A stretch of 64,000 nt of DNA from positions 64,001-128,000 of the IMG/VR virus record IMGVR_UViG_3300028886_000003. The stretch is one strand, 5' to 3'. The notes under the pieces were generated by a model, which searched no databases, was not told the DNA's origin, and saw nothing but the letters and a program-made list of their open reading frames with translations. The DNA is from a virus. Lineage: Duplodnaviria; Caudoviricetes. Every line of letters begins with the position of its first letter. Positions within the stretch are counted from its first letter, which is position 1. The position numbers and the translations under genes were made by a program. This document shows positions 1,969 to 57,633 of this stretch, piece by piece.

Positions 1969-2491
1969 TTTTTACCATATCAAGTATCTCTCTTGCATGT
2001 ACTCGATAAGGATATTGTATTGTATTATCTAAATGTTCAAAATCTTTCCATTCTTTTTTCCACTTATCAATACAATTTTGAATATTTTTAATAATTTTTT
2101 GATCTTCTTTATCTACAAAAGCAGCACTTTTATTAATAATCTTCATTAATTGCAACATCATTTCCGCAGACTTACTACTATCTGCAACCCATTTTTTATG
2201 CTCAATTTCTGCTATATCATCAATCATATGGTTAAATGTATATTCTGATAAAATTTTACAAAGTTCAGAATATGATAATACTTCACCTTTTATTATAATA
2301 TCATCATATGAATTAAAAATATCTAAAAATTCATAATGAACAATATAATGACTGCCATAACGATGTTGAAATTTTTTTACATCTTTTTGCATTACTATGC
2401 CAATAGTTTCATTTGTTATATGATTATACAGTATAGAATAATTTTCAATTAAATCATGAACAGAAATACCCAGCAAATCTTGCTTAATCAT
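1949..2491 (-). CDS. Hypothetical protein (weak RyR-domain-like C-terminus)
   Basis: AEIEHKKW...WKDFEHL...YR pattern. Confidence 0.45.
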   Translation of the reverse strand: MIKQDLLGISVHDLIENYSILYNHITNETIGIVMQKDVKKFQHRYGSHYIVHYEFLDIFNSYDDIIIKGEVLSYSELCKILSEYTFNHMIDDIAEIEHKKWVADSSKSAEMMLQLMKIINKSAAFVDKEDQKIIKNIQNCIDKWKKEWKDFEHLDNTIQYPYRVHAREILDMVKNDRECE

Positions 2492-3155
2492 TTTCTTTTA
2501 CCTCAAATTCTGCTATTAACATAAAGTTTCTATATACAACAGTAGCAAATTTTATTGTTACTTTTTTTACAGCCATTAATTCAATTCTTTTTCGTGAATA
2601 AGATGGGTGTAATTGCTTGTAATCATAAAATTTTTGATGATAATATTTTTTATATTCATCATCTTGTCGCATCATTTTTCTTGCACATCTAGTTAGTGCT
2701 ATTTTTAAATTTTCACAGTAATCAATAGGATCTTGTTTTTTATTTGCTAATACTTTACCTTTGATTTTATTATCCATTTTACAAAATTGATTATTTGTTT
2801 TTACAACAGGAGCTAATCCTGCATATGAAAGAAAATGTTTTAAATTTTTAAAACGTAATATATTATCTATCTCAGTTATTAGCTCAGCTGCATCATAAAT
2901 ATTAATAGCTTCAATATTAGCTAAAAAATCCATATACTCTCTTGAAAATCGAAGCATATTATATATTTCATTACGTAACTCATCTAAAGCACTATCCATA
3001 CTTCTAATACTTATTTTTTCTAATCTATCAATACGATTGTCTTGTACTTCTTCATCCATACCATTGATACGATGCATATTACTTTTTTGAGCATCAAATA
3101 ATGTTTTATTTGTATTAGATAAAATTGATAATACTTTTCTTTCATCAGCATCCAT
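2484..3155 (-). CDS. IS110-family C-terminal (Tnp/Nop-like) domain protein lacking the RuvC DEDD domain
   Basis: AAELITEIDNILRFKNLKHFLSYAGLAP...LKIALTRCA...YY...AVKKV; only 223 aa; no catalytic SG after AGLAP. Confidence 0.75.
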   Translation of the reverse strand: MDADERKVLSILSNTNKTLFDAQKSNMHRINGMDEEVQDNRIDRLEKISIRSMDSALDELRNEIYNMLRFSREYMDFLANIEAINIYDAAELITEIDNILRFKNLKHFLSYAGLAPVVKTNNQFCKMDNKIKGKVLANKKQDPIDYCENLKIALTRCARKMMRQDDEYKKYYHQKFYDYKQLHPSYSRKRIELMAVKKVTIKFATVVYRNFMLIAEFEVKEND

Positions 3156-16572: not shown

Positions 16573-18102
16573 CTATAATTTAATACATGAATATCTTTCA
16601 TTATTAAGTGTTTCAATTAATACATCGTATGGATTATAATTATTACTCATAACCATTTTTAAAACATTTTGACTAAATCCTGACAATAATGTTACACCTA
16701 ATTCATTTTCAGTTAATGGAATTGTTTTTGTTCTTGATGCAACATTCCAAAATATAAGTTTAGGTAATTGATACAGTGCGTCTTCATATTTTGCTTGAAT
16801 TTCCTTAAATAATGGTTTTGATAATTTTTTTGTTTCATCTTTCCTAAAGAACGAATGACAACTTTGTGCTGAATCAAATTCCATATCAGAAATAATAAGC
16901 ACTTGTTTTACCATATCCTTTCGTTGGACATTATTTTTAATTGCCACACCTAATATCAAATCAAATACTGCTTCAATATTAGTATTAGCCACTTCATCAT
17001 GTTCTAATGCTGTGTTAATTTTCTCTCTTAAAGTTTTTGAGTTACTTAAATCAACAAATTGTGGTTCATTAGAAAATGTAATATATTGATCTTTATATAC
17101 TCCTTCATTATGTTCTGATGTATATATTGCTAAACTGTTAGCAACATCAAGAGCGGTAATATTTCCACTAACTGGTGTAGTCATACTACAAGATCCATCA
17201 GCAACTACTAAGGTATTAGATATATTAATATCTGATAAATTAGACCAAGCTACTTCTAATGTTTCATCATAGTTTTCCTCAGGTATAGAATAGAAACGAT
17301 TAGATGTATAACGTGATACAACATCAGCAGGTGTTGCAACTTTCATATTTATTTTAGCATTACCTTGCTGAACAGCATCTAAATACCTACCTCTTCTTAA
17401 AGGATCATGTGCCATAAAAGCATTCCTATACCTTAAATTAGCTAAAGATGGCACTTTATTATAATCAATACTTTCCCACTCGTTATTACACATTTTTACT
17501 TCAACTACATTTAAATATGCACGAAGTTCTGATAATAATAAACGATATTGGCGCGGAGACATGCCTAATGACTTAATAATATATTTAGCCATCATTTTAG
17601 TTTTTTTGCTACTTGCATTCTCACTTGGTAACCATTTCGCAAGTAATGAAATAGGTTTGTTATTCTTCATTAATTCTTTATCCATTTTTAATCTTCTATC
17701 GATCATATGGATAATTAAATTATCATGTTCCAAATCATAGCCTAAAAGTGATATTAAATCATCCCATCGACCATATTCAGGAATAAGATGTAAGAATTTA
17801 ACGAAATAGTTTGGATCAATTTGAGCAAGCCTTCTGTAGCATACTCTAAATAATCTTCTTTCACCAAGTCCCCCACGAACATCTCTAGCAAAAAATAACC
17901 ATTTTAATGCATATTCCTTATTTTCTAAAAAGGCTTCGTCAAATAAAGTTCTAATTAATTCATCATCTGCTTGACGTAAACTACTAACTTGATAATTTAA
18001 ATCAAGTAATGCTGAGCCTGTGCTTTTATATCCAATAGCACCATTTTCTGTTATTGAATGATTTTTAATTTCTCTTAACTCATTTCTAATTAAATTAAAC
18101 AT
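16573..18102 (-). CDS. DUF2828 / TROVE(Ro60)-like protein with C-terminal vWA domain
   Basis: TENGA, RDVRGGLGER, YGRWDD, AKWLPSE, W..IDY..VPS.A, VADGSCSM (MIDAS), ISDMEFD, FWNV, LSGFS. Confidence 0.9.
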   Translation of the reverse strand: MFNLIRNELREIKNHSITENGAIGYKSTGSALLDLNYQVSSLRQADDELIRTLFDEAFLENKEYALKWLFFARDVRGGLGERRLFRVCYRRLAQIDPNYFVKFLHLIPEYGRWDDLISLLGYDLEHDNLIIHMIDRRLKMDKELMKNNKPISLLAKWLPSENASSKKTKMMAKYIIKSLGMSPRQYRLLLSELRAYLNVVEVKMCNNEWESIDYNKVPSLANLRYRNAFMAHDPLRRGRYLDAVQQGNAKINMKVATPADVVSRYTSNRFYSIPEENYDETLEVAWSNLSDINISNTLVVADGSCSMTTPVSGNITALDVANSLAIYTSEHNEGVYKDQYITFSNEPQFVDLSNSKTLREKINTALEHDEVANTNIEAVFDLILGVAIKNNVQRKDMVKQVLIISDMEFDSAQSCHSFFRKDETKKLSKPLFKEIQAKYEDALYQLPKLIFWNVASRTKTIPLTENELGVTLLSGFSQNVLKMVMSNNYNPYDVLIETLNNERYSCIKL

Positions 18103-19006: not shown

Positions 19007-19117
19007 AGCCTAAGGAGGGACTCGAACCCCCAACCTATTGATTTCTTGTATTAAGATTATCTACTAAATCATTAATATTACAAGTCAATCGCTCTACCCA
19101 TTTGGAGCTACTCAGGC
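19007..19117 (-). tRNA. tRNA-Thr(TGT) with 36-nt canonical 37/38 intron (19043-19078)
   Basis: BHB motif: CTTG/CAAG 4-bp helix flanked by 3-nt bulges TAA and AAA, then TATTAA/TTAATA. Confidence 0.92.
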
Positions 19118-38765: not shown

Positions 38766-40577
38766 CTATTCTTTCTCTTTTTTAATTAACCCCATAATAA
38801 AGTATTTGTTGTTACCATTTGCTGTAGGCATATATTCTCTATGCACTTGGTAATATCCTTCTGCATTATTGCTGTGGTTGTATGAACCATCTTTTAAATC
38901 AAAGGCATCCATAATAAGTCTTTTGACTTTGTTACGATCTTTAATTTTTGCTTCAGGTTGTTTATGGTAAATTGCTTCTCTTACATCTTGTGCGGTAACT
39001 AATTTTTCGTATTCGCCATCGTCAAGTAAGGTATTCCAGTCATAGTAATCATATCTGAATGTATCTTCAATAATATATCTTTCAGGATTGTTATATTTGT
39101 TAATGAAGTGAGTGAATTCATCATTAGTTTTTTCTGCAGATAATCTTGTACCTTTAGGGCCGTGTCTAATTTTCATGTAGGCATCAATACTGTTGGTGAG
39201 TAACCAGTTCATTGATTCTTCACTACATACAATATTTGGAAGTATTTGAGGATCACGTTTTGAAGGGTCACTTATACCGAAATTGAATTCAATAAAGCAT
39301 TTCATTCTTTCCATTAGTGCACTGTCTATGTGTTCACCAATACCTGCTAGATCATTAGTAGTTACTAATGTTTTTGGTAATTCCCAGTCTTCATAATGTT
39401 TGGATTGTTCATATATTCTTGCTATATTCATTCCGCCTTGACCGGTGTAGTTTTTGATTTCAGGAACATTTTTGATTCCATTGTATTCGTCTACGATGTT
39501 GATGTTTGCATCGATTAATGGTTGTATGTATTTGGAATCAAAGTCTGAGTTGAATATGTCTACATTACATTTATTTTTGTCAAGTAATTCGCCAAGTAAT
39601 GATGCACATACTCCTTTTCCACTTCTTGATGCACCAATAAAGAAGATTATTAATTGGTATGGGTTACCATCGTCTAAATAGTATCCAAAGATTTCAAGTA
39701 ATTGTTTTATTTTATTCTCTGGGTCATCTCTGAATATTTCATATAAGAATTTGCGTAATGGCTCAGGTGGTTCAGTACCAATTAAAGACTTCTCATATGT
39801 ATATGGTGTCTTTTTGTTGATAATTATTTCTTTGTCTGAGCTGGTATGAAACTTGTTAGTTGAGAAATCAAAGTATCCATTTTTTGTTACTATTTTATTG
39901 TATGATGGATTTACTGTTCGGTTAAAGTAGGTTAGAACTATGTCTAATGTTTGAGCACTTACTTTATTAACTTCGCATACATCATATACAAATTGTAACA
40001 TCTCATCTTTGTCTATTGTTCTACATATGTTGGTGGCTAAAGGCATAACATATCTATTGTAAGTTTTCTTTAAACCGGCCTTTAAGAAAAGATCAACCAT
40101 TGCTTGGATTAGGTCATTGTTAGTTCTGGAAACTTTTTCTGTGTCAATTAAGTATTTAATATGGTCTGGTATAGAATACTCATTACTTTTTTGAAGATTA
40201 CTGATGTATTTCTTAAAATTGGAGAATATTTTCTTCTCGTTATGACCTGAATCATTTAATTGTTGAAATGTGTCACGTGCATCTTTATTTTTGAGTTTTA
40301 GATTTTTATTTAACTCAACATATTCACCTTTAATCTTAAGCTCGTTATATTTGGGATCGTACACCATATTAAGAAAATCAAAATGATACCCATCTTCATA
40401 TTCAACTACGTGCATATCCATAAAGTTAGGTAATAGTTGCTTTTCAACAACTTCCTTACTGTACTTCCAATTAACGTTCTCTTCTACTTCATAGAGTCCT
40501 TGCTCTTTTTCTCTCATTGCTTTGTACTTTTCAAATTTATCCATAAAATCATTGGAATCTTCATTTTCAAAATCCAT
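38766..40577 (-). CDS. Superfamily 3 (D5/P4-type) replicative helicase
   Basis: KNGYFD (D5_N), Walker A GASRSGKG, Walker B NIVDE, motif C TTN, arginine finger ER. Confidence 0.85.
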   Translation of the reverse strand: MDFENEDSNDFMDKFEKYKAMREKEQGLYEVEENVNWKYSKEVVEKQLLPNFMDMHVVEYEDGYHFDFLNMVYDPKYNELKIKGEYVELNKNLKLKNKDARDTFQQLNDSGHNEKKIFSNFKKYISNLQKSNEYSIPDHIKYLIDTEKVSRTNNDLIQAMVDLFLKAGLKKTYNRYVMPLATNICRTIDKDEMLQFVYDVCEVNKVSAQTLDIVLTYFNRTVNPSYNKIVTKNGYFDFSTNKFHTSSDKEIIINKKTPYTYEKSLIGTEPPEPLRKFLYEIFRDDPENKIKQLLEIFGYYLDDGNPYQLIIFFIGASRSGKGVCASLLGELLDKNKCNVDIFNSDFDSKYIQPLIDANINIVDEYNGIKNVPEIKNYTGQGGMNIARIYEQSKHYEDWELPKTLVTTNDLAGIGEHIDSALMERMKCFIEFNFGISDPSKRDPQILPNIVCSEESMNWLLTNSIDAYMKIRHGPKGTRLSAEKTNDEFTHFINKYNNPERYIIEDTFRYDYYDWNTLLDDGEYEKLVTAQDVREAIYHKQPEAKIKDRNKVKRLIMDAFDLKDGSYNHSNNAEGYYQVHREYMPTANGNNKYFIMGLIKKEKE

Positions 40578-40585
40578 GTTATCAC

Positions 40586-40774
40586 CTAAATGTTATTTGT
40601 TTTATTTTCAAGATTTATTCCTTCTTGATTAATGTTTTGTTTGTAGAAATTCATTAATGCTAGTCTAAAAATTGCTGCTTTTGACAAAGAAGTCATATCT
40701 TGCAATTCTTCTAGCATTTGCTCTGTTTTCTTGTCCATCCATATTGATAGACGAATATCTTTTTTCGATGTCAT
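40586..40774 (-). CDS. Ribbon-helix-helix (CopG-like) DNA-binding protein
   Basis: IRLSIWMD...LEEL...SKAAIFRLAL. Confidence 0.8.
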   Translation of the reverse strand: MTSKKDIRLSIWMDKKTEQMLEELQDMTSLSKAAIFRLALMNFYKQNINQEGINLENKTNNI

Positions 40775-41314
40775 AGTAGTCTTTTATGTACCGAAGTAGT
40801 ATATAAACCTATCTGTCCTCAACGTACAAAAAAGTACATTATTATTGAGTTGCACATTATTGCATTGAATACCGCGAACAATCAAACATATATATATAGT
40901 TTTTTCTGAATAATGTATACATTGTAATGGGGGGGTATGGCAACCCCAGTTTCCTATATATATATCTATTTTTTTTTTATTCTATTGTTTATATCTTTTA
41001 TTATAGATGGCCTTTTTTATATAGAGTAAAAAAAAAAAAAGGGTTAGGGGGGGGGAAACAAGGGTTGTATAACACCCCCTTCTTAAAGTTAGAAATATGT
41101 TACATTTGTGAAAGTGTGTTTTTGGGCTTTGATTGACGGGAAGGTTGGAAAAAAATATCATTTTAATTGATTTTACGATTGATAATTTTAATACTTTTTC
41201 ATTTAAACCTTACTTTAATTAATGAGCTTTTTGATTATTCAAGGTATTGTTTATGAAAATGTATGTTTTTTGTATGTTGATATATATTGAATTGTTTTTG
41301 GGTGTAAAATATGT

Positions 41315-42304
41315 TTGGTTTTGGGGTGGTTGATAGTAAAGTTTATATATGATGTTTTTAATAGTTATATGTATCAATTTGTGGAGATGATATGTTTGAG
41401 TTTAAAGTGGAAGAGTACTGAGATTGGTGATCATAGTTTGATGAGTATTAGTTTTAATGATGCTGAGGTTGATATTGCTATCACTAATAATGAGGCTAAG
41501 AAGTTGCAGGCGATTTTGAATGATATTAAGCATGATTATCGTTCTAATGTTGGTGTGGGTAAAGATTTGGAGTCTGAGGTTAGTGATAATGTTATTGGGC
41601 CTAAGGTTAAGGAAACGCTTAGGTTGTGGCGTGATCAGTTAAATTCTTTTTTAGATGATAATGAGCCTGTTTATTATTCTACTGATGGTGATTCTAGTTG
41701 TTTTTATGTTGATTATCAGAATAATGATGAGGATGTTCTTGATCTTTTGGCGGCTTATAATTTGTTGGGTTGTACTCTTAATGAAACTGAATCTCGGTTA
41801 GGGAACATGAATATTGAGTATATTTTGAAGAGGAATGATATTAGTTGGAGTAGTTTGCCTGTTGAGCGTTTTGATAAGCGTTTTGGTATTGAGAGTGAGA
41901 TCATTGGTAGGGTAAGTGTGGATGCTAAGTATGTTGCTGGTGTTAGTAGTGGTCGTGTTATTAATGATGTTGCTAATGATGTGGATTTACCTGTGTATAT
42001 AGTTTGGGCGTGTTGTGTTGCAAGAGGTATTAGTTTTGATATACATAATTGTATGACTGATAGTATTGAACATATTTATGTGAGGGTTGGGCCTAGTAAG
42101 ATTTTTGATAGTAATGATGATTTTAGTATTCATTATAAGGATGCTTATAACAAGCTTGATAGTCTTGGTGGTATTAAGTTCTTGAAAGAGTGTAAGAGTA
42201 ATGGTATGTTTCAGCGTGAAATAGCTAATAAGTATGGTATTAGTATTAGTCATTTGCGTAGGTATATTGTTAATATTCATAAAGAGGATTGGGGTGAGTG
42301 GTAA
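41315..42304 (+). CDS. Hypothetical protein with C-terminal HTH (true start probably near 41390)
   Basis: GMFQREIANKYGISISHLRRYI; TATA AAAGTTTATATA at about 41338. Confidence 0.6.
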   Translation: MVLGWLIVKFIYDVFNSYMYQFVEMICLSLKWKSTEIGDHSLMSISFNDAEVDIAITNNEAKKLQAILNDIKHDYRSNVGVGKDLESEVSDNVIGPKVKETLRLWRDQLNSFLDDNEPVYYSTDGDSSCFYVDYQNNDEDVLDLLAAYNLLGCTLNETESRLGNMNIEYILKRNDISWSSLPVERFDKRFGIESEIIGRVSVDAKYVAGVSSGRVINDVANDVDLPVYIVWACCVARGISFDIHNCMTDSIEHIYVRVGPSKIFDSNDDFSIHYKDAYNKLDSLGGIKFLKECKSNGMFQREIANKYGISISHLRRYIVNIHKEDWGEW

Positions 42305-42639
42305 TGGTTTTGCTTAAGGAGTTGTTTAATGAGGCGTATACTAAGTATGGGTATAATAGTAATTGTAAGAAGAAGTCGCGTGTTATGGTGAAGTCATCTG
42401 AGTCTGGGTTCTTTAATATTAGTGTTGTTGAACGATATGATGCTAAGAAGGGTTATGTTTTTAGATATTCCTGGGTGGATGAAAATAATGAGCGACATCG
42501 TTCGGAATCTATTGATCTTTATAGATTACGTAAGAAAGTGTTGACTAATGGTTGGGATTGGGGTATTTATAATATACCTTTGGCTCATCAGTTATTGATG
42601 CGTTTTAATGTTCCTTATAATGTGTCTTGTTTAAAATAA
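42298..42639 (+). CDS. AP2-like DNA-binding domain protein
   Basis: SGFFNIS...GYVFRYSW...SIDL..LRKKV...GW.W. Confidence 0.5.
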   Translation: MVMVLLKELFNEAYTKYGYNSNCKKKSRVMVKSSESGFFNISVVERYDAKKGYVFRYSWVDENNERHRSESIDLYRLRKKVLTNGWDWGIYNIPLAHQLLMRFNVPYNVSCLK

Positions 42640-42960
42640 TTTTTCTTCTTTTTTTTATTGTTTTATTAGTGCTGGTTGCTTGGATATATTAAAGAAAGTT
42701 TTTTTGTTGTTTTTTGAGTTTTGATTGTGTTTTTTCGATATTAATTATGATTGTTTTTTTACTTGTTCTATGTATTGTACTGCTTCATATGATATGTATA
42801 GTATATTATATTTTTTTGTTTAATGTTCTGTGATTGGAGGCTATTTATTTGCTTGTTTTAGCTTGTGTGGCAGGATTTTTTTGTAATATTTTTTTGGCAT
42901 CCCTTTATTTTTATGTCAAATATAATTTGTTTTCTCCTGGGGGAGGGGCGTTTTTTTTAG

Positions 42961-43508
42961 AAAGGTTTATATAGTAGTTTTGACAGATATTTAATTGCAA
43001 GTGTGTATGGTTGGCAAAAAAGATTTTATACGAATGATTAAATTTATGGAGGAGATTTTTTTTCTTCTACGTGCTTTGGTTATTTATTTTTTTCTTTTTT
43101 TATTTTTTTTTTGGAAACATAAGTAACATAAATTTTTTTTATGTTTTTTATGGTAAAGTTTATATAGTAGTTTTGACAAATATATATTTGCTAATAAACT
43201 TAGTGGTTGTTTGATAATTAATTTTATCAATTAACTATTTTTTTCTTTTTTTTTAGTAAAGTTTATATACTAGTTTTGATATATAATTAATTGTAATTTA
43301 TTAGGTAGATTTTATACGAACGAAAAAAAATGGAGGAGATTATTGTCTGATTAGTTTTCATTTTAAGAGTTCATTGGGAAGAATATTGTTTTTATTTGCA
43401 TTTTTACATTCTCAGTATAGGTCTTATCTTGTTTGTTCCTAATGAACTCTATAACACCTTTTTTTAATAGAAAACTTTATATACTATTTTTAACAGATAT
43501 ATTAATTG
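42961..43508 (+). promoter_or_regulatory. Four tandem TATA-box promoters (42961, 43155, 43258, 43471) in non-coding DNA
   Basis: Consensus AAAGTTTATATA(G/C)TAGTTTTGACAGATAT.TAATTG. Confidence 0.75.
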
Positions 43509-43630
43509 GAGAAGATCAAAATATCTGTATTTTCTTCGAAATTCATTTTAAGGAATTCATTAGGAATATATTATTAATTTCGTTTCCTTTCAGTGTATTT
43601 TCTAATTTTACTTGTGCCTAATGAATTCCT
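43366..43630 (+). ncRNA. Two homologous long-stem hairpin units (43366-43450, 43551-43630)
   Basis: AGAGTTCATTGGGAA/TTCCTAATGAACTCT and AGGAATTCATTAGG/CCTAATGAATTCCT, both preceded by TTCATTTTAAG and containing a central TCAGTRT. Confidence 0.55.
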
Positions 43631-44271
43631 CCTCCTATTTATTTTTATAATGGAAAAAAACTTAACTATATATATAACGTCCAACAGACTATTTTTTGTG
43701 CATACTTAACTACTGTATGCATACATGGTATTATGCCCCTTTTGATATTCTACTATTCGAAATAGCATATTACATAAAAAAATGTCACCTCCTATAAAAC
43801 GTTTTAGCTGGGTAATTAATTTTTTACCTGGCTAAAATCAACTCCTTGCGGGGTCGATGTGAAATCACTACTTGTTCACTGTTTTTACTTTAATATTGAA
43901 CATTTGTTTAATCAGTCTTATTTTTGCTAAACACCATTTTTTGGTATATACAAGCATCTAGATGTGCCACGAAAGACATTTTGAGTTTGAGAACAAGATC
44001 AAATAAAACACACATATTCACCAAATACTCAATAACTATAACCCACCAATTAACCAAATAAAACGAAAGTACCCAAATAATTGAAGCTATTTTTTAGATC
44101 AAGATGAAAATCACACTAAAAAACACTGAAAAATGTGTTGAACAGTGCCCGTATATTAAAAATATCAGGTCAATTCGATAAAAAATATTTAGGCGCACCT
44201 AAAAAAACAGATGGAAACAAAAACCAGACCCTTGCGCGTATAAAAATATTAGAAAATAAAAAAACAAAAAT

Positions 44272-44421
44272 ATGAAAATCAACAACAAAACCATACTAAT
44301 ACTTGGACTAATAATGATCGCAATACTAAGTATGATATTTTACCATAAAGATGTAGCACTTGCAATAAGTAGTGGTCTAGTAGGTTACTTAAGTAAAGAT
44401 AACCAACATAGTAAAACATAA
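44272..44421 (+). CDS. 49-aa membrane microprotein (absent from ORF track)
   Basis: MKINNKTILILGLIMIAILSMIFYHKDVALAISSGLVGYLSKDNQHSKT*. Confidence 0.6.
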   Translation: MKINNKTILILGLIMIAILSMIFYHKDVALAISSGLVGYLSKDNQHSKT

Positions 44422-44427
44422 TAACGT

Positions 44428-44512
44428 ATAATGATCCATACTCCTGCGACAAGTGTAAACCAACATAATATATTATTTAATACCAATTAAGAATAATGAT
44501 CCATACTCCTGC
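44428..44512. repeat. Perfect 20-bp direct repeat, two copies
   Basis: ATAATGATCCATACTCCTGC at 44428-44447 and 44493-44512. Confidence 0.85.
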
Positions 44513-44579
44513 AGCAGGTATCTACAATGTTATATATTTATTTCACAAAAAAAATAATATTATTATGAGTATCTTTGTT

Positions 44580-44900
44580 TTATGCTTCAAAGAACTCTTT
44601 ATTTACTCTGACATTAGACCATACAATAGCTTTTCTCATATATTCTTCATCTTTGTTATATCCTTCAGCCATATATTCTTCAACAGAATCAAAGCCTAAC
44701 ATATATGCAAATTCATCAGTCATACAACGAATATCATACATAAAAGTATATTCAATAAATACCTCAGCAAAATATGGTTTACTAAAATCATTCATAAATT
44801 TATGATCTTTACCAGCAATAATTTTAAAATCAGGTTTACGTAAACTTATAAATTTTTGTTTAGAACAAATTGGATCAATATTTTTCTTTTTCATTAACAT
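44580..44900 (-). CDS. ASCH/PUA-like domain protein
   Basis: K..SLRK...MTDEFAYMLGFDSVEEY. Confidence 0.5.
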   Translation of the reverse strand: MLMKKKNIDPICSKQKFISLRKPDFKIIAGKDHKFMNDFSKPYFAEVFIEYTFMYDIRCMTDEFAYMLGFDSVEEYMAEGYNKDEEYMRKAIVWSNVRVNKEFFEA

Positions 44901-44929
44901 AATTATACCTCCTTTAAAAATATAATAGG

Positions 44930-45625
44930 TTATAACATTGCGTCATAACCTATGTGAGCACAACAATCTCGGTACAAGTTTTTGTATTTCTTTATTGTGC
45001 TTCTTTTTCCTTGTTTATCTTCTTTTCCTCCATGTAATGTCCAGTATTCAGTGAAGCCACTAGGATAATTAGGATTGTGCCTTAATTTGGGTTGGTGAAT
45101 ACATACACCTCCCCATATAGTTTGATCCTGTAGTTCCTTCATTCTTTTTAATTGTTCTTTTTTGTTTATTCCATGCCAATGGTTGATCTCAAGAACAATT
45201 GTTGGACCACCAAAATATCCATGACCTTTTCTTTCAACAATACCTTTTTTATATTCGTAGTTTCTTGCGTATTTTTCTTTGAGGTTGCTTCCATGTTTTT
45301 TGATTTGGTTTTCGACAGTTCGATCCCATGCTCTTTTGAATTTTTCAATATCTCTGTCATGATCTGCATATTTAGTTACATATCTAATGCAGTTGTTTTT
45401 ACCATTTTGAGGTAATACTCCATGTTTGTTTGGTTTTACTCCGCATCTTGCGGCAATTTTCATGATCTTTTCATCAGGATAACCACCGTGTGCAATACCT
45501 TTTGATCCATTTATCGCATCAAATTCTTTTTCATTTAAGCTTGGATAAGCTCTTTTACTTGATTGTTCTGCTAAACCACTTATAGCTGCTGCAGCTAAAC
45601 CTACTCCGATTAAACTTAAAACCAT
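44930..45625 (-). CDS. Hypothetical protein with hydrophobic N-terminus
   Basis: 231 aa; GGAGGT RBS. Confidence 0.6.
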   Translation of the reverse strand: MVLSLIGVGLAAAAISGLAEQSSKRAYPSLNEKEFDAINGSKGIAHGGYPDEKIMKIAARCGVKPNKHGVLPQNGKNNCIRYVTKYADHDRDIEKFKRAWDRTVENQIKKHGSNLKEKYARNYEYKKGIVERKGHGYFGGPTIVLEINHWHGINKKEQLKRMKELQDQTIWGGVCIHQPKLRHNPNYPSGFTEYWTLHGGKEDKQGKRSTIKKYKNLYRDCCAHIGYDAML

Positions 45626-45631
45626 ATATAT

Positions 45632-45832
45632 CTACCTCCTAACAACAGAAATGTCATAATTACGCTCTTTTAAAATAATTGAGCCAACACTCCATTCCTG
45701 ATAATAAATAAATTTACTTTCACCATTTTTAATTGATCTATCAATGCTTCTAAGTAACTTTATTAATTCTTCATCACTCATATTCTCTAATCTTTTTTGA
45801 GTTTCTTGTACACTTTCAACTATTTGCATCAT
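45632..45832 (-). CDS. Hypothetical protein
   Basis: GGAGG RBS and own TATA promoter (about 45864-45881). Confidence 0.55.
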   Translation of the reverse strand: MMQIVESVQETQKRLENMSDEELIKLLRSIDRSIKNGESKFIYYQEWSVGSIILKERNYDISVVRR

Positions 45833-45885
45833 GTTAATCGCCTCCTAATTATAATTTTATTTCAACTACTATATAAAAGTTGTGG

Positions 45886-57270: not shown

Positions 57271-57633
57271 ATGAAATGTAATATTTGTAAAAATTATGAC
57301 GGAGAAAATTGTATACATTGTTCCTTTGAATACGATGAAAATGCATCATTCGCCAAAGATGACTGGGACATTCTCAATCTAAAAGAAGAAGATGGATGGG
57401 AACATATACAAATACTTGACAGACTGCATTACAAAAATATTGAATGCATAATGGCAGACATATGGTATGACAACAATTTAGCATACTTAATAGGATGTAA
57501 AGCACATCCTGAAAAAATAGCTAGAGCATTAAATATTCATTCCGATGTAATATATAACGATATAGAACATGGATTATTCATAATTAACTTATTTCAAGAA
57601 AAATACATTAGAGGATTACTAAATGATAATTAA
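57271..57633 (+). CDS. Hypothetical protein with N-terminal Cys cluster
   Basis: CNIC...CIHC. Confidence 0.55.
   Translation: MKCNICKNYDGENCIHCSFEYDENASFAKDDWDILNLKEEDGWEHIQILDRLHYKNIECIMADIWYDNNLAYLIGCKAHPEKIARALNIHSDVIYNDIEHGLFIINLFQEKYIRGLLNDN

What the first reader, a model, noticed from the sequence alone, without database searches (positions are those of the whole stretch)
42961..43640. Non-coding cluster of four tandem promoters apparently driving a family of small RNAs
Seen: four near-identical 36-38-bp TATA cassettes with no credible ORF downstream, each followed by 60-160 nt and T-runs. Units 1 and 3 share AGATTTTATACGAA and ATGGAGGAGATT. Units 3 and 4 share TTCATTTTAAG plus a 14-15-bp stem (TTCATTRGG/CCTAATGAA) enclosing variable-TCAGTRT-variable segments. 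Inference: viral sRNAs with a conserved scaffold and two variable segments, reminiscent of dual-guide RNAs and a possible partner of the Nop-like protein. Alternatives are SD-bearing ribosome decoys or a TBP/TFB sponge.
Basis: partly seen in the sequence, partly recalled or inferred. Interest (0 to 1): 0.72.

Follow-up and report, generated by a model that had tools for sequence, protein, structure and literature searches.

The report
Four-promoter small-RNA cluster in methanogen virus
A 145-kb virus of rumen methane-producing archaea carries four copies of one strong promoter in a row, each apparently making a short protein-less RNA of unknown job, and between two of them sits a near-exact copy of a hairpin that some host genomes keep in front of one ATPase gene.

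Summary
Four 42-nt BRE/TATA cassettes (81-86% alike) lie on the + strand at 42951, 43144, 43247 and 43461. Each is followed by 48-166 nt without an SD-led ORF and then a T-run. The only ATG ORF (unit 1) holds four T-runs of 7 or more, which real genes here avoid.

Units 3 and 4 are paralogues. A 15/14-bp clamp, kept through compensated changes, closes a U-rich loop of 55/52 nt (z -3.9/-4.1).

My best reading is a cluster of independently promoted, oligo-T-terminated small non-coding RNA genes. This rests on sequence only; transcripts are not shown.

The dual-guide (TIGR-Tas) idea fails the published motif test. The "variable" segments are 57-64% identical, so they are diverged copies, not spacers.

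No Rfam family matches. No other copy turned up in the virus or in 151 Methanobacteriaceae genomes.

Two distant relatives have tandem promoter-hairpin-T-run units at the same place, but with different sequences.

New here: 43114-43152 matches a hairpin found in 20 of 314 host-family genomes. In the five genomes I inspected it lies at a single locus, and in the three whose genes I looked at it adjoins a PF01637/STAND-like ATPase gene.

Function remains open: anti-RBS RNAs, decoys, or a transcription-activated origin. The scan noted similar clamp RNAs in other genomes; I did not check those notes.

The parts
42951..42992 (+). Promoter cassette 1: T-run, BRE, TATA at 42966-42973. Predicted start is the G at about 42997.
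   Evidence: start inferred from the TATA-to-ATTG distance, not mapped
42997..43063 (+). Unit 1. About 60-66 nt, unstructured, and carries AGATTTTATACGAA and the SD-like ATGGAGGAGATT. It ends in a T8 run.
   Evidence: (z +0.71)
43056..43112 (+). Stack of T-runs (T8, T7, T7, T10), read as a multiple terminator. It also forms the body of the only ATG ORF (43007 or 43046 to 43126), which I reject as a gene.
   Evidence: 4 runs of T>=7 in 81 nt, against 15 in 103,356 nt of 74 long ORFs
43113..43153 (.). Palindrome/hairpin shared with host-family genomes. Its right arm runs into promoter cassette 2.
   Evidence: I11; + strand -10.9 kcal/mol, z -4.6; - strand -7.8
43144..43185 (+). Promoter cassette 2 (TATA 43159-43166; predicted start about 43190)
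43190..43254 (+). Unit 2: 13-nt single-stranded 5' end, hairpin at 43202-43239, then T7 and T9
   Evidence: (-12.5 kcal/mol, z -4.25, 0 of 200 shuffles)
43247..43288 (+). Promoter cassette 3 (TATA 43262-43269; predicted start about 43293)
43293..43465 (+). Unit 3. The 5' part is paralogous to unit 1. Then comes TTCATTTTAAG, then the clamp (arms 43366-43380 and 43436-43450) around a 55-nt U-rich loop with central TCAGT, then a tail and T7.
   Evidence: D6, D8, D10, I5; z -3.90
43461..43502 (+). Promoter cassette 4 (TATA 43476-43483; predicted start about 43508)
43508..43647 (+). Unit 4. It has a 5' hairpin (43506-43539), TTCATTTTAAG, and the clamp (arms 43551-43564 and 43617-43630) around a 52-nt loop. 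A single-stranded tail with CCTCCTCC follows, then T5.
   Evidence: I8; z -4.11 and -3.29
41342..42639 (+). Context: a fifth promoter of the same kind and its two genes (41387-42304, 305 aa with a resolvase-type HTH at the C-end; 42304-42639, 111 aa). These head the same rightward island.
43801..43838 (+). Context: a 15-bp hairpin preceded by TCACCTCCTAT, in the same non-coding tract
   Evidence: (z -4.62)
44224..44513 (+). Context: three copies of the word CCAKACYCYTGS (44224, 44436, 44501). The word recurs in the same place in related viruses.

Best explanation
The stretch is a cluster of four separate small non-coding RNA genes of a tailed virus of Methanobacteriaceae (rumen or gut methanogens).

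Each gene has its own host-type BRE/TATA promoter and ends at oligo-T. The predicted products are about 60 nt (unit 1), 55 nt (unit 2), 170 nt (unit 3) and 135 nt (unit 4).

The units arose by duplication and recombination of a terminator-promoter cassette. Unit 3 joins a unit-1-like 5' half to a unit-4-like 3' half.

In units 3 and 4 the constrained part is a 14-15-bp clamp helix. It holds open a U-rich loop and presents a short single-stranded 3' tail.

My inferred mechanism is trans action by base pairing or protein capture. The C-rich tails (CCTCCTCC in unit 4; CACCT in unit 3) would pair with ribosome-binding sites. The GGAGGAG word of units 1 and 3 would be their counterpart.

What is shown: the promoters' sequence features, the absence of coding capacity, the folds, and the compensated stem changes. 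What is inferred: that the RNAs are made, where they end, and everything about what they do.
For: Promoters: 4 exact core matches against 0.26 expected. The same word stands upstream of genes and resembles a promoter in a host-family genome.

Non-coding: no SD-led ORF. T-runs of 7 or more are 7-fold rarer than A-runs on the sense strand of 74 long ORFs (15 against 105 in 103 kb), yet the unit-1 ORF has 4 in 81 nt. A related strain has 13 letters left out at 43397-43411 in loop A, and two single-letter indels in unit 1.

Structure: units 2, 3 and 4 have z -4.25, -3.90 and -4.11, with 0 of 200 shuffles as stable.

Stem constraint: between units 3 and 4 the clamp differs by one G-U to A-U change, two double changes (G-C to A-U, A-U to G-C) and one extra pair added on both arms (read). 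The loops meanwhile have drifted to 57-64% identity with 9 gap columns.

Same architecture in relatives: L124 and L127 have tandem promoter, hairpin, T-run units at the syntenic spot. That spot lies between a homologue of the 305-aa gene and the convergent 105-aa gene, which is 87% identical.

Pairing: the GGAGGAG words of units 1 and 3 pair with the unit-4 tail at -14.2 and -14.7 kcal/mol. The tail is unpaired in the predicted fold.
Against: No transcript is shown. The RNA-library contigs of this very strain that read laying listed do not include units 1-4. Contigs cannot show starts or ends, and 131 pieces were not listed.

Unit 1 does not fold better than shuffles.

No family members were found outside this genome, so covariation rests on two sequences.

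No long complementary target exists in the virus: the best are 13-15 nt, with E of 0.006 or worse.

The SD/anti-SD words are short. CCTCC is common on this strand (57 in the genome) because it is the reverse of ribosome-binding sites of leftward genes.

The tract lies near a D5-type primase gene (38766-40577) and is full of repeats and hairpins, as an origin would be.
Confidence: 0.5

Rival explanations
1. Transcription-activated replication origin. The tandem promoters fire short transcripts into T-rich, easily melted DNA to open or prime the origin. The palindrome and the CCAKAC repeats are binding sites for initiator proteins.
For: It is a 1.9-kb gene-poor tract (42640-44580) with a palindrome, many hairpins and a thrice-repeated conserved word. 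It lies 2-5 kb from a D5-type primase. A resolvase-type HTH protein is encoded just upstream. The CCAKAC word is kept in the same place in four related viruses. Tandem promoters followed by an A+T-rich stretch are how I recall the phage T7 primary origin; I did not read a paper on it.
Against: GC skew simply follows gene direction, so it gives no origin signal. The cassettes match gene promoters in word and spacing. Compensated changes in the clamps argue for a folded single strand rather than duplex binding sites. Another reader placed a candidate origin at 40780-41085 instead (note e1-5688611, not checked).
Confidence: 0.17
2. Units 3 and 4 are guide RNAs (stem-loop tigRNA-like or bridge-RNA-like) for the virus's nuclease-less Nop/IS110-type protein. 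Their two loop halves would read two DNA strands.
For: Stem-loop tigRNAs are hairpins with a palindromic stem around two spacers and can be expressed from flexible genomic positions. In units 3 and 4, CTT/CTA, 8-10 nt, then TG abuts the 3' arm (read).
Against: There is no box C after the 5' arm. The interiors are 55 and 52 nt, against at most 43 in the published definition. The genome-wide count by that definition is at chance, with no unit here. The inner segments are 57-64% identical, not hypervariable. There are only two units, 40 kb from the gene. Rfam finds nothing at E up to 5.
Confidence: 0.05
3. The units encode very small proteins. An example is the 26-39-aa hydrophobic peptide of unit 1, as a type I toxin whose message is masked by the C-rich tail of unit 4.
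For: The unit-1 ORF has a charged start, a run of about 20 hydrophobic residues and a KHK end. The unit-4 tail pairs exactly over its ATG GAG GAG. The two single-letter indels in a related strain both lie upstream of ATG 43046.
Against: There are four T-runs of 7 or more inside 81 nt, where genes of this virus have 0.145 per kb. No SD word precedes any start. The hydrophobicity is what T-rich DNA gives in any frame. The unit-3 copy of the start is followed by a stop after 6 codons. Units 2 and 4 have no ATG ORF of 10 or more codons.
Confidence: 0.08
4. The cassettes matter as DNA, not for their products. They would be a sponge for host TBP/TFB, or repeated promoter-terminator cassettes that serve as recombination points for module shuffling (like PeSL cassettes of T4-type phages). 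The short transcripts would be by-products.
For: The cassette is a fused terminator T-run plus promoter, repeated four times. Unit 3 looks like a recombinant of unit-1 and unit-4 halves. Relatives have other sequences between equivalent promoters. This region is the most divergent piece between strains: about 86% identity at 43238-43580, against 93-96% in flanking pieces of run X4. One relative (L127) even carries its own TFB gene beside its cluster.
Against: The clamp stems are kept by compensated changes, and the hairpins are far more stable than shuffles. That is not expected of by-products.
Confidence: 0.1

Closest known systems
Separately promoted small regulatory RNAs of phages and archaeal viruses, and anti-RBS sRNAs of methanogens (Methanosarcina mazei sRNA41/sRNA154). 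The latter are recalled, and named in scan note e1-4675957; no paper read.
   Same: Each has its own promoter, a hairpin, a U-run end and a short single-stranded C-rich word able to pair with ribosome-binding sites.
   Different: No sequence or Rfam relation. Here there are four genes in a row with cloned promoters in a virus. The clamp-and-large-loop shape is not that of the named sRNAs. No target was identified.
Stem-loop tigRNAs of TIGR-Tas systems (Faure et al. 2025, PMC12045711: passages and section 9 read; bioRxiv 10.64898/2026.09.09.750476: passages read)
   Same: A palindromic stem encloses two segments around a central element. The family is viral or prokaryotic, and a Nop/IS110-type protein is present in the genome.
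   Different: Box C/D words are absent at the 5' side, the interior is too long, the segments are not hypervariable, and there is no array next to the gene.
Tandem early promoters and the promoter-containing primary origin of phage T7; PeSL promoter/stem-loop cassettes of T4-type phages (Arbiol et al. 2010, known to me only through scan note e1-5688616; not read)
   Same: Repeated copies of one strong promoter in one direction in a non-coding tract. A cassette pairs a promoter with a stem-loop or terminator and marks module borders.
   Different: These are archaeal BRE/TATA promoters, and each one is closed by its own T-run. They therefore give separate short products rather than one long early message.
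Y RNAs / YrlA bound by Ro60-type proteins (recalled)
   Same: A long terminal helix, a large pyrimidine-rich loop and a U tail. The virus has a TROVE-like gene at 16573-18102, according to notes e1-5688604 and e1-5688614.
   Different: That gene has its own adjacent hairpin array, with a different conserved word according to those notes. The clamp here is not formed by the RNA's 5' end. This was not tested.
Phage copies of host regulatory RNAs used as decoys, e.g. RNA anti-CRISPRs and pseudo-ToxI (recalled; pseudo-ToxI is also named in scan note e1-5779672)
   Same: A virus carries a near-exact copy (37-38 of 39 letters) of a host hairpin element.
   Different: The host element is not a CRISPR repeat or a known antitoxin. 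It is a 22-24-bp A/U hairpin, present at one locus in one to three copies in the five genomes inspected, next to a PF01637 ATPase gene in those whose genes were examined. Its role is unknown.

Membership tests
Archaeal BRE/TATA promoter | Purine-rich BRE directly upstream of an 8-nt TATA box (TTTATATA type in methanogens; consensus recalled) | tested here: met
   All four cassettes read RNAAANN-TTTATATA. The same word precedes genes and resembles a promoter in a host-family genome.
Archaeal BRE/TATA promoter | Transcription starts at a purine about 22-27 nt after the TATA box | not testable with these tools
   A conserved ATTG/TTTG word lies 23-24 nt after each TATA box. No start-site data: the laid runs are contigs only.
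Stem-loop tigRNA (TIGR-Tas) | [quoted passage not shown] | tested here: not met
   Definition taken. No such pair in 42600-44600. Genome-wide 18 against 15.3 +/- 2.5 in 10 shuffles. Only the 3' side of each unit fits.
Stem-loop tigRNA (TIGR-Tas) | Palindromic stem of at least 5 bp flanking the unit | tested here: met
   15-bp and 14-bp clamps
Stem-loop tigRNA (TIGR-Tas) | Loop of at most 15 nt between the two intervals (interior at most about 43 nt) | tested here: not met
   Interiors of 55 and 52 nt
Stem-loop tigRNA (TIGR-Tas) | Spacers differ freely between units while the boxes stay fixed | tested here: not met
   Loop A 16 of 25 and loop B 12 of 21 letters identical, against 38% expected
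Stem-loop tigRNA (TIGR-Tas) | Bound and used by a Tas (Nop-domain) protein | not testable with these tools
   A Transposase_20/Nop-type gene exists at 2484-3155, 40 kb away. No binding data.
Archaeal box C/D sRNA | C box (RUGAUGA) near the 5' end and D box (CUGA) near the 3' end (consensus recalled) | tested here: not met
   Only one C-like word with a mismatch (unit 1, 43034) and one CTGA (unit 3, 43347). No unit has both. No Rfam hit.
Type I toxin-antitoxin | A translated small hydrophobic toxin ORF | tested here: inconclusive
   The ORF exists, but it has 4 T-runs of 7 or more in 81 nt against 0.145 per kb in genes, and no SD.
Type I toxin-antitoxin | An sRNA complementary to the toxin message | tested here: inconclusive
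   A 7-bp core, -14 kcal/mol, between the unit-4 tail and ATGGAGGAG. It is short and could be chance.
Replication origin with iterons | Regularly spaced repeats that are not promoters, next to an initiator gene | tested here: not met
   For the cassettes: spacing is irregular (193, 103, 214 nt) and they carry promoter words. The separate CCAKAC repeats remain open.

The most novel reading that the evidence does not exclude
The cluster is a viral RNA toolkit aimed at host gene expression.

Units 3 and 4 (and the TCACCTCCTAT element at 43785) would display single-stranded words like the 3' end of 16S rRNA next to a stable helix, and so mask ribosome-binding sites. Units 1 and 3 would carry the matching GGAGGAG word as a built-in counterweight.

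The 39-nt copy of the host hairpin would act as a decoy. It would draw off whatever host factor controls a STAND-like ATPase gene that sits beside a candidate defence gene. In one relative strain the unit-3 tail is one letter closer to the 16S end (43454 A>T).
Probability: 0.1. Interest if true: 0.8.

Novelty: new member of a known kind. Interest (0 to 1): 0.5.

Why it matters
Almost nothing is known about non-coding RNAs of viruses that infect methanogens, the archaea responsible for ruminant methane.

A row of four cloned strong promoters devoted to protein-less products suggests the virus invests heavily in RNA-level control. The clamp-and-loop RNAs belong to no catalogued family.

The near-exact copy of a host hairpin has two uses. 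It gives a concrete, testable handle on virus-host interplay. It also narrows the likely host, since only 20 of 314 family genomes carry it.

If the RNAs turn out to mask ribosome-binding sites or to decoy a defence regulator, this would be a new viral take-over strategy in archaea. If not, it is still a clean example of promoter-terminator cassette duplication.

Tried and rejected
RNA evidence. One search for runs and one laying were allowed. Runs X3 and X19 are metatranscriptome libraries kept as contigs. Contigs identical to the window were listed over 40500-40684, 41408-41714, 42369-42529, 43637-43921, 43902-44087 and pieces of 44541-45833. None was listed over 42961-43636. At 43280, 43347, 43454, 43487 and 43541 the X3 depth was 0. 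The depth of 24-57 at 43397-43411 comes with a loose end of foreign sequence. This is no evidence of absence: small RNAs are usually lost from such libraries, 131 pieces were not shown, and DNA carry-over is possible.

Relatives.
- The search for related loci with single proteins found nothing.
- blastn against phages found nothing.
- The scaffold pattern had 0 matches in viral contigs.
- The promoter word gave 119 or more single chance matches in unrelated A+T-rich contigs and was useless.
- An alignment of the 231-aa neighbour found nothing in viral contigs. It found 6 metagenome loci and 3 genome loci.
- Only L124 and L127 keep the syntenic non-coding tract. L129 and L130 do not.

Other negative or inconclusive checks.
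- The covariance model of the clamp core found only the two known copies, plus one weak hit inside a gene (E 0.08). It found nothing at E of 0.01 or better in 9 loci or in 151 family genomes.
- Another reader claimed that loop B is antisense to the MTENKRF gene starts. Only a 7-letter core (TTCAGT plus one) is shared with the 6 exact junctions, and no extended match exists. I reject this as unsupported.
I replaced it with blastn-short.
- The host ATPase as an Orc1/Cdc6 initiator: it scores 40 bits against a cut-off of 181, and the genome has two true Orc1/Cdc6 genes elsewhere. Rejected.
- A word shared between unit 1 (TATGGTTGG) and the exact 17-mer common to L124 and L127, and its possible pairing with the CCAKAC repeats, is too short to judge.
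- The L124 look-alike of the palindrome arm does not fold and may be chance.

Literature. Two searches listed nothing on such clusters in methanogen viruses.
Full report
WHERE THE WINDOW LIES. The window is bases 64001-128000 of a 145,330-bp virus record with 116-bp direct terminal repeats and 28% G+C. Its genes are phage-like: a D5-type primase at 38766-40577, PcfJ-like and HIRAN proteins, and tRNA genes. Its promoters are archaeal BRE/TATA words. A neighbouring protein has relatives on contigs binned with Methanosphaera and Methanobrevibacter genomes. The DNA is held by bovine, goat and sheep gut runs. Earlier notes of this scan also call it a methanogen virus.

THE OBSERVATION. It is confirmed.
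- The repeat finder returns one family of four 42-nt copies at 42951, 43144, 43247 and 43461, 81-86% identical to the reference, spaced 193, 103 and 214 nt.
- The core AARSTTTATATASTA occurs 4 times exactly, all here and all on +. Two one-mismatch hits lie elsewhere (18357 and 40797, both -). Expected by chance: 0.26 +/- 0.48, and 0 of 100 shuffles reach 6.
- Each cassette is the T-run of the preceding unit, a purine-rich BRE, TTTATATA, and a conserved 20-odd letters ending in ATTG or TTTG 23-24 nt after the TATA box.
- Similar words stand upstream of genes at 41342 (+), 45877 (-), 40807 (-) and 18367 (-). A promoter in a host-family genome aligns with cassette 3 through the start region.

They are therefore promoters of the host type, not iterons. 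I place the starts at about 42997, 43190, 43293 and 43508. This is inference; nothing here maps a start.

NON-CODING CHARACTER. No unit has an ORF of 8 or more codons preceded by an SD-like word. The only ATG ORF is in unit 1 (43007 or 43046 to 43126; 39 or 26 aa, very hydrophobic). I tested it against the virus's own genes. In 74 ORFs of 150 aa or more (103,356 nt), the sense strand has 15 T-runs of 7 or more against 105 such A-runs. Oligo-T, the archaeal terminator signal, is thus avoided in genes at 0.145 per kb. The 81-nt unit-1 ORF has four such runs: T8, T7, T7 and T10. I read this as a terminator stack, not a gene.

In a related strain (run X5), 13 letters are left out at 43397-43411 in loop A of unit 3. 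Unit 1 has one letter left out at 43016 and one put in behind 43044. These are not multiples of three.

THE FOUR UNITS.
- Unit 1 (about 60-66 nt up to the first T8) is unstructured, z +0.71.
- Unit 2 is a 13-nt single-stranded end plus a hairpin and T7/T9: -12.5 kcal/mol, z -4.25, 0 of 200 shuffles.
- Units 3 and 4 share TTCATTTTAAG and a clamp of 15 and 14 base pairs around loops of 55 and 52 nt. z is -3.90 and -4.11, with 0 of 200 shuffles.
- Unit 3 begins with a copy of the unit-1 words AGATTTTATACGAA and ATGGAGGAGATT, but their spacing differs by 2 nt. The conservation is therefore at the nucleotide level, not in a reading frame.
- Unit 4 begins with its own 5' hairpin.

THE CLAMP IS THE CONSTRAINED PART. 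Reading the arms, the two clamps differ in four ways: one G-U to A-U change, two changes on both sides (G-C to A-U next to the core, A-U to G-C further out), and one extra pair present on both arms of unit 4. The loops have drifted. Loop A is 16 of 25 aligned letters identical with 8 gap columns. Loop B is 12 of 21 with 1 gap column. Composition alone predicts 38%. With only two sequences this is suggestive, not proof.

Between strains, the piece covering units 3-4 is the most divergent listed. In run X4, 43238-43580 has 27 substitutions and 20 gap letters in 343 nt. The flanking pieces are 93-96% identical.

KNOWN FAMILIES. Rfam at gathering score finds only tRNAs in the window. At E up to 5 on 40780-44600 it finds one meaningless miRNA hit outside the units. 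No unit has both a C-like and a D box.

I took the definition of stem-loop tigRNAs from the TIGRFinder methods: box C, an 8-10 nt spacer, box D, twice, at most 15 nt apart, flanked by a stem of at least 5 bp. I scanned the whole genome with it.
- 18 units, against 15.3 +/- 2.5 in 10 shuffles.
- 2, against 1.4 +/- 1.0, with stems of at least 8 bp.
- None in 42600-44600.

Units 3 and 4 lack a box C after the 5' arm, and their interiors are too long. The Nop/IS110-type protein (Transposase_20, E 8.7e-9) is at 2484-3155, 40 kb away. The dual-guide idea is therefore not supported. A very divergent system cannot be excluded without binding data.

OTHER COPIES AND TARGETS. A covariance model of the clamp core finds the two copies (E 3.8e-13 and 3.2e-11) and one weak hit inside a gene (E 0.08) in the virus. 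It finds nothing at E of 0.01 or better in 9 related loci, and nothing in 151 genomes of the host family. blastn-short of the four units against the virus gives, outside the cluster, at best 13-15 exact letters in A+T-rich sequence, with E of 0.006 or worse. Another reader suggested that loop B is antisense to the MTENKRF gene starts. That rests on a 7-letter core.

RELATIVES. Two loci keep the syntenic tract.

In L124, a 302-aa homologue of the window's 305-aa protein (23% identity, E 1e-11) heads a rightward island. That island ends in about 1.1 kb of non-coding DNA facing a 105-aa gene that is 87% identical to 44580-44900. The tract holds two tandem BRE/TATA promoters:
- The first is followed by a hairpin, the word TCACCTCCTAT, and a terminator hairpin (z -5.18).
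- The second is followed by a 12-bp 5' hairpin, a 17-letter word, a hairpin and T7.

L127 has one such unit with the same exact 17-letter word. The architecture is thus conserved while the sequences are not. This fits fast-evolving RNA genes, but also a regulatory or origin region.

A HOST-SHARED HAIRPIN INSIDE THE FINDING. A DNA search of 201 family genomes with 42990-43650 mostly hit T-runs and promoter look-alikes. However, letters 43114-43152 matched at 95-97% over 38-39 nt in many genomes, often twice close together. This is the palindrome between the unit-1 T-runs and promoter 2 (I11).

- Its 28-letter core, with up to 2 mismatches, occurs in 20 of 314 family genomes. There are 37 matches, and 0 for the reversed control.
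- In five genomes examined it occurs 1-3 times, always at one locus.
- In three genomes whose sequence I read, it lies just upstream of, or on both sides of, a 386-405-aa gene. That gene matches PF01637 ATPase_2 (E 4.5e-16, above cut-off), AAA_16 and nSTAND1.
- The gene has weak PADLOC hits (PDC-S27, E 2.4e-9). In one genome it sits beside a strong PDC-S01 candidate-defence gene (E 2.5e-56).
- It is not the replication initiator: 40 bits against a cut-off of 181, and two true Orc1/Cdc6 genes lie elsewhere.
- The host version has three GAAACATAA repeats per arm. It folds into a perfect 22-24-bp hairpin in the gene's sense orientation (-21.5 and -25.5 kcal/mol, z about -10), against -13 on the other strand.
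- The viral copy has two repeats per arm and also folds better on the + strand: -10.9 against -7.8.
- The virus has no homologue of the ATPase.

What the element does is unknown. It may be an operator, a leader attenuator or a small hairpin RNA in the host. In the virus it may be a captured terminator, a binding site upstream of promoter 2, or a decoy.

MECHANISM. I commit to small non-coding RNA genes (0.5). Within that reading, the most concrete idea is pairing with ribosome-binding sites.
- The unit-4 tail, unpaired in the fold, holds CCTCCTCC.
- The unit-3 tail holds CACCT. In runs X4 and X5 it differs at 43454 (A>T) in a way that extends its likeness to the 16S rRNA 3' end; I compare with that end from memory.
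- TCACCTCCTAT recurs at 43785 and in L124 next to hairpins.
- Units 1 and 3 carry GGAGGAG, which pairs with the unit-4 tail at -14.2 and -14.7 kcal/mol.

These words are short. CCTCC is common on this strand (57 in the genome), so this stays a hypothesis. The rivals are given separately: origin 0.17, cassette-as-DNA 0.10, micro-proteins 0.08, guide RNA 0.05.

VERDICT. This is a real, well-defined and unexplained non-coding cluster. The promoter and non-coding claims stand. The guide-RNA interpretation does not pass its test. A new host-shared hairpin adds a testable lead. Interest 0.5: a new member of the known kind 'virus-encoded small RNA genes'.

Noticed in passing
window 43113-43153; host loci L143 1501-1539 and 1823-1861, L148, L150: A 39-nt A/U palindrome of the virus is 95-97% identical to a hairpin present in 20 of 314 Methanobacteriaceae genomes. 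In the five inspected it occurs 1-3 times at one locus. In the three I read it adjoins a PF01637/nSTAND1-type ATPase gene, which in one genome sits beside a PDC-S01 candidate-defence gene.
   Followed up: partly
window 44224, 44436, 44501 (+); L124 8245, 8176, 8100; L127 8854, 8778; L125 5716: A conserved word CCAKACYCYTGS, with an A/T-rich left flank, is repeated 2-3 times at 65-214-nt spacing in the same non-coding tract of four related viruses. It is always on the strand of the small units, just beyond the 3' end of the convergent 105/106-aa gene. It could be iterons, 3'-UTR elements or RNA motifs.
   Followed up: partly
L127 7760-8668 (+): The 144-kb relative encodes a full transcription factor B (TFIIB repeats E 2e-49 plus Zn ribbon) right beside its own small-unit cluster. 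tblastn found no such gene in the window's virus.
   Followed up: partly
window 44580-44900 (-): A 106-aa protein with no Pfam, PHROG or NCBIfam match is 87% identical to its L124 counterpart. The adjacent 231-aa protein is only 41% identical there. This small gene is unusually conserved.
   Followed up: no
window 44272-44421 (+): A 49-aa predicted membrane peptide on the + strand, in A-rich sequence. It has a 69%-identical DNA match (E 9e-9) in a Methanobrevibacter MAG, so it is probably a real small gene at the end of the rightward island.
   Followed up: no
window 43801-43838 (+) and 43690-43730: Further stable hairpins in the same tract. One is a 15-bp helix with z -4.6, preceded by TCACCTCCTAT. 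RNA-library contigs identical to the window cover 43637-43921 and 43902-44087.
   Followed up: partly
window 41387-42304 and 42304-42639 (+): The two genes ahead of the cluster overlap as TAATG. The first belongs to a tiny family (5 full-length relatives among 1.8 billion representatives) and ends in a resolvase-type HTH that also occurs as multiple repeats in GIY-YIG endonuclease-like proteins.
   Followed up: partly
window 57271-57633 (+): Homologues of this Zn-ribbon protein lie directly upstream of the small-unit tract in L124 and L127 (42-46% identity), but 14 kb away in this virus. The rightward island has been rearranged.
   Followed up: no
window 19007-19117 (-): Rfam calls a sixth tRNA of 111 nt that ARAGORN missed. 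It presumably contains an intron.
   Followed up: no
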